From the IMG/VR virus record IMGVR_UViG_2671180296_000001, positions 1 to 6,697 of that record: 6,697 nucleotides of DNA; one strand, written 5' to 3'. This DNA comes from a virus. Taxonomy: Duplodnaviria; Heunggongvirae; Uroviricota; Caudoviricetes. The number at the start of each line of letters is the position of its first letter. The stretch's first letter is position 1. The translations under genes and the position numbers were made by a program. Under the pieces are notes generated by a model, which was not told the DNA's origin, did not search any database, and saw only the letters and a program-made list of their open reading frames with translations. Positions 1 to 6,697 of this stretch are shown here, in pieces.

Positions 1-752
1 TTAAGGGAAAAACCACCTCACAGTATCTGGCCTCGGTGGTGGTGGGTAACCTGCCGCCGCGCCCGTTCAATATACGGATGCGCAGGATGACGCCGGACAG
101 CACCACAGACCAGCTGCAGAACAAAACGCTCTGGTCGTCATACACCGAAATCATCGATGTGAAACAGGGCTACCCGAACACGGCACTGGTCGGCGTGCAG
201 GTGGATTCGGAGCAGTTCGGCAGCCAGCAGGTGAGCCGTAATTATCATCTGCGCGGGCGCATTCTGCAGGTGCCGTCGAACTATAACCCGCAGACGCGGC
301 AATACAGCGGTATCTGGGACGGAACGTTTAAGCCAGCATACAGCAACAACATGGCCTGGTGTCTGTGGGATATGCTGACCCATCCGCGCTACGGCATGGG
401 GAAACGTCTTGGTGCGGCGGATGTGGACAAATGGGCGCTGTATGTCATCGGCCAGCATTGCGATCAGTCGGTGCCGGACGGTTTTGGCGGCACGGAGCCG
501 CGCATCACCTGTAATGCGTACCTGACCACACAGCGCAAGGCGTGGGATGTGCTCAGTGATTTCTGCTCTGCGATGCGCTGTATGCCGGTATGGAACGGGC
601 AGACGCTGACGTTCGTGCAGGACCGACCGTCGGATAAGGTGTGGACCTATAACCGCAGTAATGTGGTGATGCCGGATGATGGTGCGCCGTTCCGCTACAG
701 CTTCAGCGCCCTGAAGGACCGCCATAATGCCGTTGAGGTGAAACTGGATTGA
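1..752 (+). CDS. J: Tail tip host-specificity protein J (lambda gpJ-like), internal segment; 5' end lies upstream of the window; frame ends at a premature TGA (750-752) after a 1-nt insertion
   Basis: Frame 0 is open from the window edge (first full codon at 3-5) and reads [76 protein letters not shown]...KDRHNAVEV, which matches the middle of lambda J as I recall it. Lambda continues ...[15 protein letters not shown]; here an AAA run at 741-743 (AA in lambda) shifts the frame. Confidence 0.85.
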
Positions 753-3241
753 CCCGAATAACGGCTGGGAGACGGCGACAGAGCTTGTGGAGGACACGCA
801 GGCCATTGCCCGTTACGGTCGTAACGTCACGAAGATGGATGCCTTTGGCTGTACCAGCCGGGGGCAGGCCACACCGCGCCGGGCTGTGGCTGATTAAAAC
901 AGAACTGCTGGAAACGCAGACCGTGGACTTCAGCGTGGGTGCCGAAGGGCTTCGCCATGTACCGGGCGATGTCATTGAAATCTGCGATGATGACTATGCC
1001 GGTATCCGCACCGGCGGGCGCGTGCTGGCGGTAAACAGCCAGACCCGGACGCTGACGCTCGACCGTGAAATCACGCTGCCATCTTCCGGCACCACGCTGA
1101 TAAGCCTGGTTGACGGGCAGGGGAGTCCGGTCAGCGTGGAGGTTCAGTCCGTCACCGACGGCGTGAAGGTGAAAGTGAGCCGTGTTCCTGATGGCGTTGC
1201 TGAATACAGCGTATGGGGGCTGAAGCTGCCGACGTTGCGCCAGCGCCTGTTCCGCTGCGTGAGTATCCGTGAGAACGACGACGGCACGTATGCCATCACT
1301 GCCGTGCAGCATGTACCGGAAAAAGAAGCCATCGTGGATAACGGGGCGCACTTTGACGGCGACCAGAGCGGCACGGTGAATGGTGTCACACCGCCAGCGG
1401 TGCAGCACCTTACCGCCGAAGTCACCGCAGACAGCGGGGAGTATCAGGTACTGGCCCGCTGGGACACGCCGAAGGTGGTGAAGGGCGTGAGCTTCATGCT
1501 TCGCCTGACCGTGGCAGCGGACGACGGCAGTGAGCGGCTGGTCAGCACAGCCCGGACGACGGAAACCACATACCGCTTCAGACAACTGGCGCTGGGGCGT
1601 TATATGCTGACGGTCCGGGCTGTAAATGCCCGGGGGCAGCAGGGTGATCCGGCGTCGGTATCGTTCCGGATTGCGGCACCGGCAGCGCCTGTCACTATTG
1701 AACTGATACCGGGGTATTTTCAGATAACGGCAGTCCCGCGTCTTGCGGTGTATGACCCGACGGTACAGTTTGAGTTCTGGTTCTCGGAAAAACGGATTGC
1801 TGATATCAGGCAGGTTGAAACCACAGCCCGCTATCTTGGCACGGCGCTGTACTGGATAGCTGCCAGTATTAATATCAGGCCGGGCCATGATTATTACTTT
1901 TATATCCGCAGTGTGAACATCGTCGGTAAATCAGCGTTTGTGGAAGCTGTCGGCCGGCCGGTTAATGATGCTGAGGTGTATCTCAATTTTTTTGAAGGGA
2001 AAATAAACAGCACCCTGCTGGGGCAGGAGCTGAACGATCGTATTAATGCCTCGGCATTGCGCAGTGAAGTTGAGCAACTGGAGGATGAGATCAATCAGCA
2101 GATAGAGAGTGATATTGCTGAAGTGACCCAAAAAATCGGGGAGACAGAAAACAGCCTCACACAGCTGGTTGCGAAAAAAAATGATGAGCTGTCACTGGGT
2201 ATATCACAGGTGAGCCAGAGAGTGGATAACGTCAGCAGCGAACTCACGCAGACGGTCAGTCAGAGTAATGAGGAGAATGCACGCCAGATAGCGCAGGTTC
2301 GCCAGTATGTGGATCAAAAAAGCAGTGAAATCATGACGACAACGGACCAGAAGCTGGGAGATCAGGAGGCCACCATCCAGCAGATACAAAAGGTTCAGAC
2401 GGACACCAGTAATAACCTGAACAGTATGTGGGCCGTGAAACTGCAGCAGATGCAGGATGGTCGCCTTTATATTGCGGGTATCGGTGCCGGTATTGAGAAC
2501 ACCCCTGACGGCATGCAGAGTCAGGTGCTGCTGGCGGCAGACAGGATTGCGATGATTAATCCTGCAAATGGCAACACAAAACCGATGTTTGTTGGTCAGG
2601 GTGATCAGATATTCATGAATGAAGTGTTCCTGAAATATCTGACGGCTCCCACCATTACCAGCGGCGGTAATCCTCCTGCATTTTCCCTGACACCGGACGG
2701 AAAGCTGACCGCTAAAAATGCCGATATCAGCGGTAACGTGAATGCGAACTCCGGGACGCTCAACAACGTCACGATAAATGAGAACTGTCAGATTAAGGGG
2801 AAACTGTCAGCCAATCAGATTGAAGGCGATATTGTCAAAACGGTGGGAAAATCCTTTCCGAGAAATGGCAGTTATGCCAGCGGTACAATAACGGTCACTG
2901 TGTACGATGACCAGGCTTTTGACCGTCAGATAGTAATCCCACCCGTTCTGTTTCGCGGTGGTAAGCATGAAAACTTTAACAGCAACAACCAACAGTCATA
3001 CTGGTACTCAACCTGTAAGCTGCAGGTGCTGAAGAACGGACAGGAAATCTTTCAGCAACCCGCGACGGATGTCAGCAGGGTATTTTCATCTGTCATCGAT
3101 ATGCCTGCCGGACACGGGCATGTCACCCTGACTTTCAATGTTTCTTCATATGGTGCTAATAACTGGACGCCAACGACCAGTATCAGCGACCTTCTTGTTG
3201 TCGTGATGAAGAAATCAACAGCCGGTATCAGTATCAGCTGA
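749..3241 (+). CDS. J: Host-specificity protein J, continuation and C-terminal receptor-binding region (frameshift-interrupted; the ORF-track start at 749 is a TTG and not a real start)
   Basis: From about 872 this frame reads [45 protein letters not shown]...[47 protein letters not shown]..., near-colinear with lambda J. Between 748 and 870 the J-homologous reading ([41 protein letters not shown]) is in the third frame. After about residue [13 protein letters not shown] the protein diverges into a long coiled-coil and a different C-terminal domain, ending at TGA 3239-3241. Confidence 0.85.
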
Positions 3242-3307: not shown

Positions 3308-3907
3308 ATGCGTAAATTATGTGCTGTTATTCTGTCTGCAGTAGTCTGGCTGGTCGCCGCTGGTACGCCAGCGAGTGCAGCAGAGCATCAGTCCACACTA
3401 AGCGGCGGGTATCTTCAGTCCCATACTGATATGCCCGGAAACGATGACCTGAAGGGCATTAACGTGAAATACCGTTATGAGTTTACGGACACGCTGGGGC
3501 TGGTGACGTCATTCAGCTATGCAGGAGACAAGAATCGCCAGCTGACCCGTTACAGTGATACCCGCTGGCATGAAGATTCCGTTCGTAACCGCTGGTTCAG
3601 CGTAATGGCGGGGCCGTCTGTGCGCGTGAATGAATGGTTCAGCGCGTATGCGATGGCGGGTGTGGCTTACAGCCGTGTGTCGACTTTCTCCGGGGATTAT
3701 CTCCGCGTAACTGACAACAAGGGGAAAACGCACGATGTGCTGACCGGAAGTGATGACGGTCGCCACAGCAACACGTCTCTGGCGTGGGGGGCTGGCGTGC
3801 AGTTTAACCCGACCGAATCCGTGGCCATTGATATTGCTTATGAAGGCTCCGGCAGTGGTGACTGGCGCACTGACGGTTTCATCGTGGGTGTCGGTTATAA
3901 ATTCTGA
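3308..3907 (+). CDS. lom: Lom-like outer membrane protein (Ail/Lom family 8-strand beta-barrel; lambda 'moron' gene)
   Basis: ATG at 3308 is preceded by GAGAGG (3297-3302). The N-terminus MRKLCAVILSAVVWLVAAGTPASA is a signal peptide. The C-terminal half ...GINVKYRYE...SVMAGP...SAYAMAGVA...IDIAYEGSGSGDWRTDGFIVGVGYKF matches lambda Lom as I recall it, including the terminal aromatic residue typical of beta-barrel OMPs. Position directly after J is as in lambda. Confidence 0.9.
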   Translation: MRKLCAVILSAVVWLVAAGTPASAAEHQSTLSGGYLQSHTDMPGNDDLKGINVKYRYEFTDTLGLVTSFSYAGDKNRQLTRYSDTRWHEDSVRNRWFSVMAGPSVRVNEWFSAYAMAGVAYSRVSTFSGDYLRVTDNKGKTHDVLTGSDDGRHSNTSLAWGAGVQFNPTESVAIDIAYEGSGSGDWRTDGFIVGVGYKF

Positions 3908-3960: not shown

Positions 3961-3971
3961 GTGGGGTGAAT

Positions 3972-4982
3972 ATGACAGTAAAGATTTCAGGTGTCCTGAA
4001 GGACGGAGCGGGTGAGCCTGTCGTAAACTGTGCGATTGAATTGCGTGCCAGAAGAACCAGTCCGACAGTTGTGGTTAATATTGTGGCAACCTGTCTTACG
4101 GGAAGTGATGGCGGGTATACTATTAATGCTGAGCCGGGATTTTATGATGTATTTTTGTCCCGCTCAGGGCATCCTCCTGTAAAGGCGGGGGAAATTTATG
4201 TTGCACCGACAGATGAGCCGGATACGCTGAATGCTTTTCTGGATGCACCAAAGGAGGGTGATTTACGCCCTGAGGTAATGAAGCGTTTTGAGGAAATGGT
4301 AAATACCGTTGTTCGCTTGTCTGAGCAGGTGGTCAGTGACAGGGAGAGAGCAGAAACAGCGGCTGATGATGCAATCAATGCAGCAACATCTGCGGCGGTT
4401 AGTAAGGATGAGGCAGAAGAGCTAAAAAATCAGACACAGCAGAGCGCCGAAGCTGCAGCCGGAAACGCACAGCAGACCGCGCAGGATGTGGAGGCAACGG
4501 TCACCGCCCGTGATGATGCGGAACGTTTTGCGGGTGAGGCAGAAAACAGCGCACAGACATCAGGCACAGCGCGGGACGAATCAGTCGATGCCGCCGAACG
4601 TGCCCGCCTTTATCATAATGCCGCATCATCAGCTGCAACCAGCGCGGAAAATGCAGCAAATGCTGCACTCGGGCATGAAAATAACGCTGCCGAATACGCC
4701 CGACAGGCTAAAGACAGCCAGGATGCAGGTGCAGACAATGCGCAGGAAGCGAAACAGTACAGGGATGAGGCGCAGCAGATAGTTGATGACCTGAATGCAA
4801 CAAATGCCAGCACGACAGAAAAAGGTCTGGTGCAACTGTGTAGTGATACGGACAACGACAGCGATGAACTGGCTGCCACGCCAAAGGCTGTCAAAGCCGT
4901 CATGGACGAAACGAAAACAAAAAGCGCCACTGGACAGCCCGGCCTTCACCGGCACCCCAACCACCCCAACCCCACCGGATGA
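3972..4982 (+). CDS. stf: Side tail fibre protein Stf, N-terminal segment (frame 0); frame is lost near 4914-4923 and runs out of frame to TGA 4980-4982
   Basis: MTVKISGVLKDGAGEPVVNCAIELRARRTSPTVVVN... matches the lambda Stf N-terminus (MAVKISGVLKDGTGKPV...) as I recall it. The ORF-track start at 3966 is GTG; the ATG at 3972 aligns with the lambda start. An Ala/Gln/Glu-rich shaft region follows, then ...TEKGLVQLCSDTDNDSDELAATPKAVKAVMDET, the conserved Stf motif. The tail after 4923 (SATGQPGLHRHPNHPNPTG) is out-of-frame translation. Confidence 0.85.
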   Translation: MTVKISGVLKDGAGEPVVNCAIELRARRTSPTVVVNIVATCLTGSDGGYTINAEPGFYDVFLSRSGHPPVKAGEIYVAPTDEPDTLNAFLDAPKEGDLRPEVMKRFEEMVNTVVRLSEQVVSDRERAETAADDAINAATSAAVSKDEAEELKNQTQQSAEAAAGNAQQTAQDVEATVTARDDAERFAGEAENSAQTSGTARDESVDAAERARLYHNAASSAATSAENAANAALGHENNAAEYARQAKDSQDAGADNAQEAKQYRDEAQQIVDDLNATNASTTEKGLVQLCSDTDNDSDELAATPKAVKAVMDETKTKSATGQPGLHRHPNHPNPTG

Positions 4983-5346
4983 TGCCGCCGGTCTGGAAGC
5001 AGCGAACGCAGCGTTTGTGCGCAAACTGCTTGCTGCGCTGGTTGGCTCATCGCCGGAAGTTCTGGACACCCTGAACGAGCTGGCAGCGGCGCTGGGCAAT
5101 GACCCGAACTTTGCGACCTCAATGATGAATGCGCTGGCAGGCAAACAACCGCTTAATGACGTCTTAACGGCAATCAGCGCACTGACGCAACGGGCAGATA
5201 ATCTTCTGTACTTCAATACAGACGGGAATGCCTCACTGTCTCTGCTGTCAGAGAAGGGCCGCGCATTACTGGCGCATGACACGGCTGAAGCCATGCGCAC
5301 GGAGCTTGAGCTGAACGCGGCCTGCGACGATGGAACCCCAGAGTGA
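4795..5346 (+). CDS. stf: Side tail fibre protein Stf, second segment (frame 1); homology-supported only from about 4905 onward
   Basis: From about 4921 this frame reads KAPLDSPAFTGTPTTPTPPDDAAGLEAANAAFVRKLLAALVGSSPEVLDTLNELAAALGNDPNFATSMMNALAGKQPLN..., colinear with lambda Stf (KAPLDSPALTGTPTAPT...NTLNELAAALGNDPDFATTMTNALAGKQP). The ORF-track portion 4795-4900 is an overlapping out-of-frame read. Ends at TGA 5344-5346 just after a CCCC run (5336-5339). Confidence 0.75.
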   Translation: MQQMPARQKKVWCNCVVIRTTTAMNWLPRQRLSKPSWTKRKQKAPLDSPAFTGTPTTPTPPDDAAGLEAANAAFVRKLLAALVGSSPEVLDTLNELAAALGNDPNFATSMMNALAGKQPLNDVLTAISALTQRADNLLYFNTDGNASLSLLSEKGRALLAHDTAEAMRTELELNAACDDGTPE

Positions 5347-5950
5347 TATCCGTGACGCACACCGGGCAGGCTGGCCCCTGTCCGGGATGTATGGGTTTGG
5401 ACAGGCATTCACCAGAGCCGAAGCTCTGTCATTTAACGGACAGGCTGATTTCGTTATATGGCTGCAGACAGTCACACCGGGGCGTTATGCGGTCAGTATT
5501 GCGGACTCTTCCACGCTGCTGAAGGGGACCACGAAATTTAACGGTATCATTGATGTGATGTGGTCACCGTCTGATAACGACGAATCAGACACGGCGCGTA
5601 AATTCAAAACGCTGCTGTACTACAACCAGTATTACGAGGATGAGCACAACATACATTGCATGCGTTATCATTACAGTGATAACACCTGGACCGCAACATC
5701 AAACATGATTGTGTATGACGGCAACTCCCTGGCATATCTGATGTCCTCAACCGCCGGTAATGGTCCGTTCTCATATTACCAATACCCGGCACTTGGCGTG
5801 CCGATTATGGCGGTATATCAGGGAGAAAGTTTTGGTGAAAATGCTTCTCTGGGACTCGGTGATACTGTGCCGGGTTCCCGTCTTGGTCCTCTGGCCATGA
5901 GTGCACGGTTAGTGATACAGGGACATACGCATCCTCACCGCAGGTTGTGA
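5330..5950 (+). CDS. stf: Side tail fibre protein Stf, third segment (frame 2): distal, putative receptor-binding part
   Basis: Long open frame with protein-like composition (…GQAFTRAEALSFNGQADFVIWLQTVTPGRYAVSIADSSTLLKGTTKFNGIIDVMWSPSD…YQGESFGENASLGLGDTVPG). Removing one C from the CCCC run at 5336-5339 joins it in-frame to the previous segment (…AACDDGTQSDIRDAHRAGWPLSGMYG…). The last residues (…QGHTHPHRRL) look out of frame. Confidence 0.65.
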   Translation: MEPQSDIRDAHRAGWPLSGMYGFGQAFTRAEALSFNGQADFVIWLQTVTPGRYAVSIADSSTLLKGTTKFNGIIDVMWSPSDNDESDTARKFKTLLYYNQYYEDEHNIHCMRYHYSDNTWTATSNMIVYDGNSLAYLMSSTAGNGPFSYYQYPALGVPIMAVYQGESFGENASLGLGDTVPGSRLGPLAMSARLVIQGHTHPHRRL

Positions 5951-6063
5951 TTGGCGGTGCCGGTGAATACAACTTCCCCGGTCGTTACACGGCGCTTTCT
6001 GGCCTGGGTAACAATTATGGTACTCAGCGTGGCTTTATCGGTCTTTTTGTACGCATTGAGTAA
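5863..6063 (+). CDS. stf: Side tail fibre protein Stf, probable C-terminal segment (frame 1, no start codon of its own)
   Basis: Frame 1 is open from 5863 to TAA 6061-6063 and reads …TVSDTGTYASSPQVVIGGAGEYNFPGRYTALSGLGNNYGTQRGFIGLFVRIE, which is protein-like, whereas frame 2 ends in …HTHPHRRL. Adding one G to the GGG run at 5920-5922 would join the two. The next gene's RBS and ATG follow immediately. Confidence 0.5.
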   Translation, partial: YCAGFPSWSSGHECTVSDTGTYASSPQVVIGGAGEYNFPGRYTALSGLGNNYGTQRGFIGLFVRIE

Positions 6064-6077
6064 TGAGGAAATCAGGC

Positions 6078-6649
6078 ATGAAAATCAGAGCGGTGAAAGG
6101 TATCAGAAACGCACATTATCTTGAAAATGGTGCGGTTGACTGCGAGGTGTTATTTGAAGGTGAAACGAGTTCGTCCTGTATACCGCCATACAGGATGATA
6201 TGGCCCCGACAGGCCAGCATGTCTGGCAGGAGCTGCAAAGCGGGAAATGGGGCGAAATCGCCCCGTTCACCGTCACGCCGGAACTTATTGCAGCGGCAAA
6301 GGATGCCAAAAGGCGGGAAATTGAGGCATGGCGAGACAGTCAGGAAAACGTTGAGTTTATTTTCACGTTTGATGGCCGTCGTTTTGATGGCGGAAAAACC
6401 TCGCAGTCACGCCTTGCCCCCGTGGTTGCAACAGCACAGGCCGGACTGCTTCCGGAGGGTTTTTTCTGGACTGATGCGGATAATAACAACGTCGTACTGA
6501 CCAGGGAGAAACTTATTGCGCTGAACGATGCCATGATGGTGGCCATGGTGACGGAGGGTTTTAAAATCCACGAACGTCAGCGGGAGATGAAAGAAGTGTT
6601 AAACACTCTGGAGGATTTAGGTGAGATACGAGCATTTAATGTTGAGTAA
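6078..6649 (+). CDS. Small conserved prophage protein immediately downstream of stf (tail-fibre-assembly position; function unknown); interrupted by a 1-nt frameshift near 6165-6170
   Basis: RBS GAGGA (6066-6070) sits 7 nt upstream of ATG 6078. Frame 0 reads MKIRAVKGIRNAHYLENGAVDCEVLFEGET, then degenerates into Arg/Ser-rich low-complexity text. Frame 2 opens at 6164 and reads NEFVLYTAIQDDMAPTGQHVWQELQSGKWGEIAPFTVTPELIAAAKDAKRREIEAWRDSQENVEFIFTFDGRRFDGG…LGEIRAFNVE up to TAA 6647-6649. The ORF-track entries 6063-6500 and 6200-6649 are the two halves of this one gene. It does not resemble lambda Tfa as I recall it. Confidence 0.6.
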
Positions 6650-6697
6650 CGAATAGATTGCAGTGAGTGTTTTTGGTATCTGAAAAACGAAGCTCCG

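What the first reader, a model, noticed from the sequence alone, without database searches (positions are those of the whole stretch)
6160..6205. Frameshift inside the small gene downstream of stf
The gene starts convincingly at 6078 with a good RBS, and both halves look like real protein in different frames. The junction is at …GAAGGTGAAACGAGTTCG… (6156-6173). Restoring one G to read ACGGAGTTC would give …LFEGETEFVLYTAIQDDMAPTGQ… as a continuous product of about 190 aa. This implies a 1-nt deletion in a GG run, the same lesion type as in J and stf.
Basis: inference. Interest (0 to 1): 0.45.

Follow-up and report, generated by a model that had tools for sequence, protein, structure and literature searches.

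The report
One-base deletion splits prophage chaperone gene
A well-known small prophage gene (a DUF4376 helper protein encoded just after the side tail fibre gene) is split by one missing G, one of eight single-base slips in this stretch that look more like sequencing or assembly errors than biology, so the finding is correct but ordinary.

Summary
The window reads ACGAG at 6165-6169. The gene (6078-6649) belongs to Pfam DUF4376 (PF14301) and phrog_1141. It sits 14 nt after stf in a lambdoid J-lom-stf module. DUF4376 proteins in that position are tail-fibre chaperones in Alteromonas and Campylobacter phages.

The deletion is one of eight window-private 1-nt indels: two insertions in J, three insertions and two deletions in stf, and this one. 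Removing all eight reopens J, stf and this gene with no stop codon.

The window has only 22 private substitutions. In about 1 kb of J there are two indels against one substitution. No homopolymer of 5 nt or more is altered, and the indels are clustered. That pattern does not fit natural E. coli mutation, where substitutions outnumber indels about 10:1 and indels favour long runs. Sequence-determination error is therefore the likeliest cause (about 0.65). Genuine decay of a dead prophage is second (about 0.3). Only the reads can decide.

Programmed frameshifting and a native start at ATG 6200 are rejected. Interest is low; the gene and lesion type are already known.

The parts
6065..6069 (+). 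Shine-Dalgarno GAGGA, 8 nt upstream of the ATG at 6078
   Evidence: Read directly from the sequence. The annotated starts of the intact homologues align to 6078.
6078..6167 (+). Codons 1-30 of the DUF4376 gene in frame 0 (MKIRAVKGIRNAHYLENGAVDCEVLFEGET)
   Evidence: These 30 residues are identical in the translated relatives. The piece matches phrog_1141 positions 2-28, E 8.6e-7.
6167..6167 (+). Lesion: a single G where all relatives have GG (ACGGAG becomes ACGAG), a 1-nt deletion and -1 frame change after codon 30
   Evidence: Alignments (nine of nine relatives have G). The intact 33-mer is present in four viral contigs.
6167..6649 (+). Codons 31-190 plus the stop, now in frame 2 (EFVLYTAIQDDMAPTGQ...IRAFNVE*)
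   Evidence: With the G restored the product is 190 aa, 96% identical to P0002 and 94% to P0001.
6293..6607 (+). Pfam DUF4376 (PF14301) domain
   Evidence: hmmscan gives 67.4 bits against a cut-off of 25, E 1.8e-18, at residues 44-148 of the 6164-6649 translation.
6168..6500 (+). Out-of-frame read-through tail of the 6078 ORF (110 junk codons and the stop); not a real coding frame
   Evidence: The 6063-6500 ORF matches phrog_1141 only at its residues 7-35.
6192..6202 (+). Internal AGGA (6192-6195) plus ATG 6200 (Met42 of the intact protein). This is a possible but weak restart site, not the native start.
   Evidence: Sequence. Met42 is internal in all close homologues. An ORF from 6200 lacks profile positions 1-42.
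3966..6063 (+). Side tail fibre gene stf, broken by five private 1-nt indels: +A at 4919, +C at 5321, -C at 5355/5356, +C at 5375, -1 at 5906/5907
   Evidence: The piece 3966-4982 matches Pfam phage_tail_N and Phage_fiber_2. It is a single 696-aa-class ORF after correction.
1..3241 (+). Tail tip gene J (5' end outside the window), broken by two private 1-nt insertions: +A at 741 and +C at 869
   Evidence: It is open throughout after correction.
3308..3907 (+). lom (Ail/Lom outer-membrane protein), intact
   Evidence: The identical 199-aa protein is listed in 237 blocks of the public collection, and all ten places shown carry a stf gene and a DUF4376 gene downstream.

Best explanation
The small gene after stf (6078-6649) is an ordinary lambdoid-prophage DUF4376 gene. 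By position and by analogy with characterised phages, it most likely encodes the intermolecular chaperone that helps the side tail fibre trimer fold. In this window it is interrupted after codon 30 by the loss of one G from a GG pair (6167). That puts codons 31-190 in the -1 frame. The lesion is not special to this gene. It is one of eight single-base insertions or deletions private to this window, and they break J, stf and this gene while leaving no other damage. The most likely origin of all eight is error in determining the sequence, such as residual indel errors of a noisy read or assembly consensus, possibly in poorly polished multi-copy prophage DNA. On that reading the real gene is probably intact. 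Shown here: the deletion, the intact contiguous homologues, the family membership, and the eight-indel pattern. Inferred: the chaperone role and the technical origin.
For: Deletion and contiguous homologues. Family: PF14301 at 67 bits against a cut-off of 25; phrog_1141 matched full length. Synteny: a J-lom-stf-DUF4376 order in nearly every relative locus examined. Chaperone role: DUF4376 proteins encoded just downstream of fibre genes are needed for active fibres in Alteromonas phage V22 (PMC7289586) and in the Campylobacter CJIE1 H-fibre (PMC7882524), and they co-purify with the fibre (PMC10579305). Natural hybrids such as P0143 join a lambda-Tfa-like N-terminal 117 aa (47% identity, E 8e-40) to a DUF4376 C-terminus. 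Technical origin, in seven points. (1) The window has 8 private 1-nt indels; six of the nine aligned relatives have none, and the three that do (L008 5 gap columns, L006 and L009 1 each) are WGS-accession single-contig chromosomes. (2) Removing the eight reopens J, stf and this gene with no stop codon. (3) There are only 22 private substitutions, mostly in three stf patches; J has 1 and this gene has 1, which is synonymous. (4) Window 169-1191 differs from a J gene of strain 504838 by one substitution plus the two insertions. (5) E. coli substitutions occur at about 10 times the indel rate (5 times without mismatch repair), and the indel rate rises exponentially with run length (bioRxiv 10.1101/346874). 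P(>=8 indels among 30 events) is 0.004 for wild type and 0.11 without mismatch repair. (6) None of the 22 homopolymers of 5-8 nt is altered; all hits are in runs of 1-4 nt. (7) The indels are clustered, with a maximum gap of 4050 nt, p = 0.005. In addition, another public product of this same gene (P0122) carries several different frameshifts, so error-laden copies do circulate.
Against: No reads and no source contig could be found, so the technical origin is inference only. Classical homopolymer-error chemistries would also be expected to hit the long runs first, and they are untouched here. Without mismatch repair the indel-to-substitution ratio alone is not decisive (p = 0.11). Defective prophages with real frameshifts in J and stf are common. 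The chaperone role rests on distant relatives. My fold searches found no solved chaperone structure resembling the model.
Confidence: 0.65

Rival explanations
1. Genuine pseudogenisation. The prophage is defective, and J, stf and the DUF4376 gene have each really acquired 1-nt frameshift mutations in the source strain. The gene would then yield only a 140-aa product (30 native residues plus 110 junk residues), and perhaps a little of an N-terminally truncated 149-aa protein from ATG 6200.
For: The lesions are in the sequence. Seven of the eight are run-length changes, as replication slippage would give (p = 0.016 against random placement). Three adjacent tail genes broken together is what a dead prophage looks like. 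With a mismatch-repair defect the indel-to-substitution ratio is not extreme (p = 0.11).
Against: After the eight indels are removed there are no nonsense substitutions, large deletions or IS insertions. There are too few private substitutions for eight neutral indels under the wild-type spectrum (p = 0.004; 1.7e-5 if only the 7 scattered substitutions are counted). There are 2 indels against 1 substitution in about 1 kb of J. Natural indels concentrate in long runs, yet A8, T7 and all seven 6-nt runs are unchanged. The deleted 32-mer was found in no genome, metagenome or viral collection scanned.
Confidence: 0.3
2. Programmed -1 ribosomal frameshifting or another recoding event. On this reading the two frames are meant to be joined during translation.
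For: A -1 shift between 6164 and about 6170 would recreate the full protein. The RNA from 6166 to 6258 folds somewhat better than shuffles (z = -2.4, 1 of 200 shuffles).
Against: There is no X XXY YYZ slippery heptamer. The zero-frame codons at the only permissible site are GAA ACG AGT, and frame 2 is closed by TGA at 6161-6163. None of the contiguous 184-206 aa homologues listed needs a shift. The same G is simply present in nine of nine relatives and four of four viral contigs. No Rfam family matches. Seven similar indels in neighbouring genes cannot all be recoding sites.
Confidence: 0.01
3. There is no frameshift in a single gene. The real gene starts at ATG 6200 (149 aa), and the 6078 ORF is a separate small or spurious ORF.
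For: ATG 6200 has an AGGA 4 nt upstream. The whole Pfam DUF4376 domain lies downstream of it. Stand-alone DUF4376 proteins of 120-140 aa exist in other phages.
Against: The N-terminal 30 codons are 100% conserved in the translated relatives and form part of phrog_1141. Homologues at 33-55% identity still align from residue 5-10. Residues 31-41 (EFVLYTAIQDD) are encoded in frame 2 upstream of 6200 and are conserved. In the AlphaFold model, residues 6-37 form three confident beta-strands packed in the same fold, with pLDDT above 90.
Confidence: 0.02

Closest known systems
E. coli lambdoid-prophage 'DUF4376 domain-containing protein' (e.g. WP_065226641.1 190 aa, WP_047671102.1 192 aa, WP_000701861.1 192 aa; clusters P0001 and P0002)
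   Same: These proteins are 94-96% identical to the restored product. They occupy the same position 14 nt after stf in a J-lom-stf module, use the same start and RBS, and have the same Pfam domain.
   Different: They are contiguous, whereas the window lacks one G after codon 30. The last ~18 residues of the window's gene (EVLNTLEDLGEIRAFNVE) belong to another allele. That tail's DNA is 88.6% identical to the DUF4376 genes of other strains.
Alteromonas phage V22 gp27 and A5 gp9, and the gene downstream of the Campylobacter CJIE1 H-fibre (DUF4376 tail-fibre chaperones)
   Same: All carry a C-terminal DUF4376 domain, are about 195-240 aa, and are encoded immediately downstream of the fibre gene. 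They are experimentally required for, or bind to, the fibre (PMC7289586, PMC10579305, PMC7882524).
Lambda Tfa and Mu Tfa (Caudo_TAP, PF02413) tail fibre assembly proteins
   Same: They have the same genomic slot (directly after the fibre gene), a similar size and a two-part build. Natural hybrids carry a lambda-Tfa-like N-terminal half and a DUF4376 C-terminal half (P0143, 47% identical to lambda Tfa residues 1-117).
   Different: There is no PF02413 match for the window's protein at E <= 1 and no sequence match to any solved structure. It is an analogue, not a member. Some relatives carry a Caudo_TAP remnant further downstream.
Frameshift in the stf gene of laboratory lambda PaPa (orf401/orf314 versus Ur-lambda); recalled from my own knowledge (Hendrix and Duda 1992), not checked here
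   Same: It is a single-base frameshift that inactivates a side-tail-fibre module gene of a lambdoid phage.
   Different: That is one verified mutation in one gene. Here there are eight indels across three genes, with a pattern pointing to technical error.

Membership tests
Pfam DUF4376 (PF14301) | HMM match above the curated gathering score | tested here: met
   The match scores 67.4-67.6 bits against a cut-off of 25, E 1.5e-18 to 1.8e-18, on the frame-2 translation. The close homologue P0002 scores 71 bits.
phrog_1141 (PHROGs 'tail fiber protein', 194 positions) | Full-length match to the profile | tested here: met
   The N-terminal piece covers positions 2-28 (E 8.6e-7). The ORF from 6200 covers positions 43-190 (E 3.7e-63). 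The intact homologue P0002 covers 2-190 (E 2.1e-81). The two window pieces map to neighbouring parts of one profile.
DUF4376 tail-fibre chaperones (V22 gp27 type) | Encoded immediately downstream of the tail fibre gene on the same strand | tested here: met
   The stf stop is at 6061-6063 and the start is at 6078. The same order is seen in every relative locus examined.
DUF4376 tail-fibre chaperones (V22 gp27 type) | Required for production of active fibre, or physically binds the fibre | not testable with these tools
   This is known only for the Alteromonas and Campylobacter proteins. It would need co-expression of stf with and without this gene.
DUF4376 tail-fibre chaperones (V22 gp27 type) | Fold resembling the intramolecular chaperone domains of T5 pb1 (4UW8) and K1F (3GW6) | tested here: not met
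Caudo_TAP / lambda Tfa family (PF02413) | HMM match to PF02413 | tested here: not met
   No PF02413 hit at E <= 1. Lambda Tfa itself scores 147.6 bits.
Programmed -1 ribosomal frameshift site | Slippery X XXY YYZ heptamer at the frame junction | tested here: not met
   The zero-frame codons at the junction are GAA ACG AGT, and the only window for a shift is 6164 to about 6170.
Programmed -1 ribosomal frameshift site | Two-frame organisation conserved in homologues | tested here: not met
   Homologues are contiguous.
True pseudogene (biological frameshift) | Lesion present in the organism's DNA and confirmed by independent reads | not testable with these tools
   No reads were available and the source record was not located.

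The most novel reading that the evidence does not exclude
The eight indels are real. On that reading the strain carries a prophage that decayed through an unusually indel-biased, short-run-specific mutational process. The DUF4376 gene then survives as an N-terminally truncated 149-aa protein restarted at ATG 6200. It keeps the whole DUF4376 domain but lacks the three N-terminal beta-strands, and would be a natural 'minimal' chaperone domain.
Probability: 0.05. Interest if true: 0.25.

Novelty: already known. Interest (0 to 1): 0.08.

Why it matters
It matters little biologically. The gene, its family and its intact sequence are already annotated in many E. coli genomes. A one-base frameshift in it is either an assembly error or routine prophage decay. 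The practical value is for annotation. The two ORFs (6078-6500 and 6200-6649) should be merged into one frameshifted DUF4376 gene rather than called as two hypothetical proteins. The density of single-base indels (8 in 6.6 kb) also flags the source record as probably error-prone, so other 'frameshifts' reported from it, including those in J and stf, should be treated the same way.

Tried and rejected
1. Locating the source record failed. I tried the exact 32-mer with the deletion, and a 32-mer from the unique 3' end, in genome, metagenome and viral collections. I also tried exact-product look-ups for six window ORFs. Only lom was found, in other genomes. The read-level test therefore could not be approached.

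2. Programmed frameshifting is rejected. There is no slippery site and the homologues are contiguous. The modest RNA structure (z = -2.4) is present in the intact relatives too.

3. A native start at ATG 6200 is rejected on N-terminal conservation.

4. I tested whether the indels sit at sites that are polymorphic among paralogous prophage copies, which would suggest collapsed-repeat consensus errors. Four of the eight have a polymorphic column within 3 nt, against a background of 0.49, so there is no enrichment.

6. Rfam gave no match on the whole window. The promoter and terminator scan was at background level.

Full report
WHAT IS THERE

The window is the distal tail module of a lambdoid prophage. 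It contains J (to 3241), lom (3308-3907), the side tail fibre gene stf (3966-6063) and a small gene at 6078-6649. The ATG at 6078 lies 8 nt after GAGGA and 14 nt after the stf stop. Frame 0 encodes 30 sensible codons (MKIRAVKGIRNAHYLENGAVDCEVLFEGET) and then runs out of frame to 6500. Frame 2 is closed by TGA at 6161-6163 and open from 6164 to the TAA at 6647-6649.

BOTH HALVES BELONG TO ONE GENE

The N-terminal 29 aa match positions 2-28 of PHROG profile phrog_1141 (E 8.6e-7). The ORF from ATG 6200 matches positions 43-190 (E 3.7e-63). The frame-0 read-through matches only at its first ~35 residues. The frame-2 part carries Pfam DUF4376 (PF14301) at 67 bits against a cut-off of 25.

Megablast against complete E. 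coli genomes finds 21 records that cover at least 80% of window 5900-6697, at 94.7-98.4% identity. All are annotated 'DUF4376 domain-containing protein' directly after a 'prophage tail fiber N-terminal domain-containing protein'. In the alignment the junction differs by exactly one base: ACG-AG in the window and ACGGAG in the relatives. The relatives translate to contiguous 190- and 192-aa proteins reading ...LFEGETEFVLYTAIQDDMAPTGQ....

Nine of nine aligned loci have the G, and four of four IMG/VR contigs carry the intact 33-mer. A search of 5.8 billion proteins with the restored product gives 1549 hits. The 120 listed are 184-206 aa and cover 93-100% of the query. Shorter proteins in the deeper search are contig-edge fragments without a start Met or carry a different N-terminus.

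THE LESION IS NOT ALONE

Pairwise and multiple alignments with nine related loci show eight 1-nt indels private to the window:
- J: +A at 741 and +C at 869.
- stf: +A at 4919, +C at 5321, -C at 5355, +C at 5375, and -1 at 5906.
- The DUF4376 gene: -G at 6167, placed at 6166 by the aligners.

Deleting the five insertions and filling the three deletions reopens J, stf and the DUF4376 gene over their full length with no internal stop; lom was already intact.

REAL MUTATION OR ERROR?

This cannot be proved without reads, and I could not find the source record. The pattern is still informative.

- Private indels in relatives. Six of the nine relatives have no private indels. The three that do (L008 with 5 gap columns, L006 and L009 with 1 each) come from WGS-accession single-contig chromosomes. 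I infer that they are draft long-read assemblies.
- Few substitutions. The window has only 22 private substitutions (10 synonymous, 12 not). About 15 lie in three stf patches (5118-5130, 5649-5703, 5791-5797) that look like recombination tracts. J has one, and the DUF4376 gene has one, which is synonymous.
- The J stretch. Over window 169-1191 the sequence differs from the J gene of strain 504838 by one substitution and the two insertions.
- Expected mutation spectrum. In E. coli mutation-accumulation lines, base substitutions occur at about 10 times the rate of small indels. The ratio is about 5 times without mismatch repair. The indel rate rises exponentially with homopolymer length (bioRxiv 10.1101/346874). 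Against that spectrum, eight or more indels among 30 private events has p = 0.004 for wild type and 0.11 without mismatch repair. With only the 7 scattered substitutions counted, p = 1.7e-5 and 0.0013 respectively.
- Run lengths. None of the 22 runs of 5-8 nt (A8 at 2174, T7 at 1987, seven 6-mers) is changed. All eight events involve runs of 1-4 nt, although seven of the eight are run-length changes (p = 0.016).
- Clustering. No indel falls between 870 and 4918, and six fall in 4919-6167 (p = 0.005).
- Other damage. There are no nonsense mutations, IS elements or larger deletions.

Taken together this looks like residual consensus noise rather than slippage mutations accumulated in a dead prophage. 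The noise may be concentrated where multi-copy prophage DNA is hard to polish: J-like sequence occurs a median of 3 and up to 14 times per genome. I put the artefact reading at about 0.65 and genuine decay at about 0.3.

One caveat applies. Classical homopolymer-error chemistries would also favour long runs, so the error model is not a perfect fit either.

In passing, another public product of this very gene (P0122) contains several different frameshifts. Error-laden versions therefore do exist in the databases.

WHAT THE GENE DOES (INFERRED)

No member of the close family has been tested. DUF4376 proteins encoded just downstream of a fibre gene are intermolecular tail-fibre chaperones elsewhere. 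V22 gp27 is essential for active fibres (PMC7289586). A5 gp9 and V22 gp27 co-purify with their fibres and are modelled as trimeric caps on the fibre tip (PMC10579305). The Campylobacter CJIE1 H-fibre needs its DUF4376 neighbour (PMC7882524).

My deeper search shows a modular family. Full-length relatives at 33-55% identity align from residue 5-10 onward. Many others share only residues ~65-185, the DUF4376 part, behind unrelated N-termini. Some, such as P0143, have an N-terminal 117 aa that is 47% identical to lambda Tfa (E 8e-40) fused to DUF4376. This argues that DUF4376 can replace the C-terminal part of a classical Tfa.

Among the close E. coli loci, the first 90 residues stay 94-100% identical wherever the adjacent stf C-terminus is found. 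The DUF4376 part can be swapped for an allele only 38% identical (L005, L007, L010). That is compatible with the N-terminal part being the fibre-specific piece, although simple linkage would explain it too.

An AlphaFold model of P0002 is confident (pLDDT 96). It has three beta-strands (6-14, 20-26, 33-37), a helix (44-55), and then a helical body with two hairpins. The frameshift falls between strands 2 and 3, and a restart at Met42 would remove all three strands. In the published V22 and A5 models the chaperone's strands beta1-beta3 form a sheet with the fibre head. If the lesion were real, any truncated product would therefore probably lack the docking element. This is inference by analogy.

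RIVALS

Programmed -1 frameshifting is excluded. The only permissible site (GAA ACG AGT) is not slippery, the homologues are contiguous, and seven sibling indels lie in other genes. A fold with z = -2.4 downstream is shared by intact relatives. A native start at 6200 is excluded by N-terminal conservation.

VERDICT

The feature is a one-base deletion in an already annotated gene family, most likely a sequencing or assembly artefact and otherwise routine prophage decay. Interest is low and nothing about it is novel.

Noticed in passing
window 741, 869, 4919, 5321, 5355, 5375, 5906, 6167: There are eight window-private 1-nt indels: five insertions that all duplicate a neighbouring base, and three deletions. 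They are clustered, with none between 870 and 4918 (p = 0.005). None of the 22 homopolymers of 5-8 nt is altered. The clustering and the sparing of long runs are not fully explained by either natural slippage or classical homopolymer sequencing error.
   Followed up: yes
window 3276 (J-lom intergenic, GGCG-CTTTTTT): The window has a single C where L003 and L004 have CC. This is not private to the window, since some relatives share it. It is probably a natural intergenic length polymorphism just before a T6 run.
   Followed up: partly
window 5118-5130, 5649-5703, 5791-5797 (stf): Private substitutions are bunched in three short patches of stf, many of them non-synonymous. This looks like small recombination tracts in the distal part of the fibre rather than scattered decay.
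   Followed up: partly
window ~6346 and ~6595; loci L005, L007, L010; hits H57-H63: The DUF4376 gene is mosaic. Some prophages share its first ~90 codons (94-97%) and stf, but carry a DUF4376 domain only 38% identical. The window's last ~18 codons and 3' flank match yet another allele at 88.6%.
   Followed up: partly
protein P0122 (157 aa, public collection): This is a product of the same gene from another record that goes out of frame and back several times. It includes the same out-of-frame peptide ...PYRMIWPRQAS...GRSCKAGNG... seen in the window's read-through ORF. That is evidence that frameshift-ridden copies of this gene circulate in public data.
   Followed up: no
proteins P0143, P0208, P0223, P0166 (alignment A2): These are natural hybrids with a lambda-Tfa-like N-terminal region joined to a C-terminal DUF4376 domain. 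P0143 residues 1-117 are 47% identical to lambda Tfa 1-117. This suggests module exchange between the two kinds of fibre chaperone.
   Followed up: partly
L003 9953-10168; L006 8628-8825: A remnant of a classical tail fibre assembly gene (Caudo_TAP, missing its N-terminus) lies downstream of the DUF4376 gene in some relatives. These prophage ends therefore carry traces of both chaperone types.
   Followed up: no
L008 (5 private gap columns), L006 5469, L009 253: Related loci from WGS-accession single-contig chromosomes also have private 1-nt deletions or insertions that split J or stf (stf as 515 + 168 aa in L006; J as 263 + 961 aa in L009). They serve as a comparison for the signature seen in the window.
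   Followed up: partly
window 6166-6258 (+): The predicted RNA structure starting right at the junction folds at -37.7 kcal/mol, z = -2.4 against shuffles. It was judged irrelevant to recoding because there is no slippery site and the sequence in the aligned intact relatives is nearly identical.
   Followed up: partly
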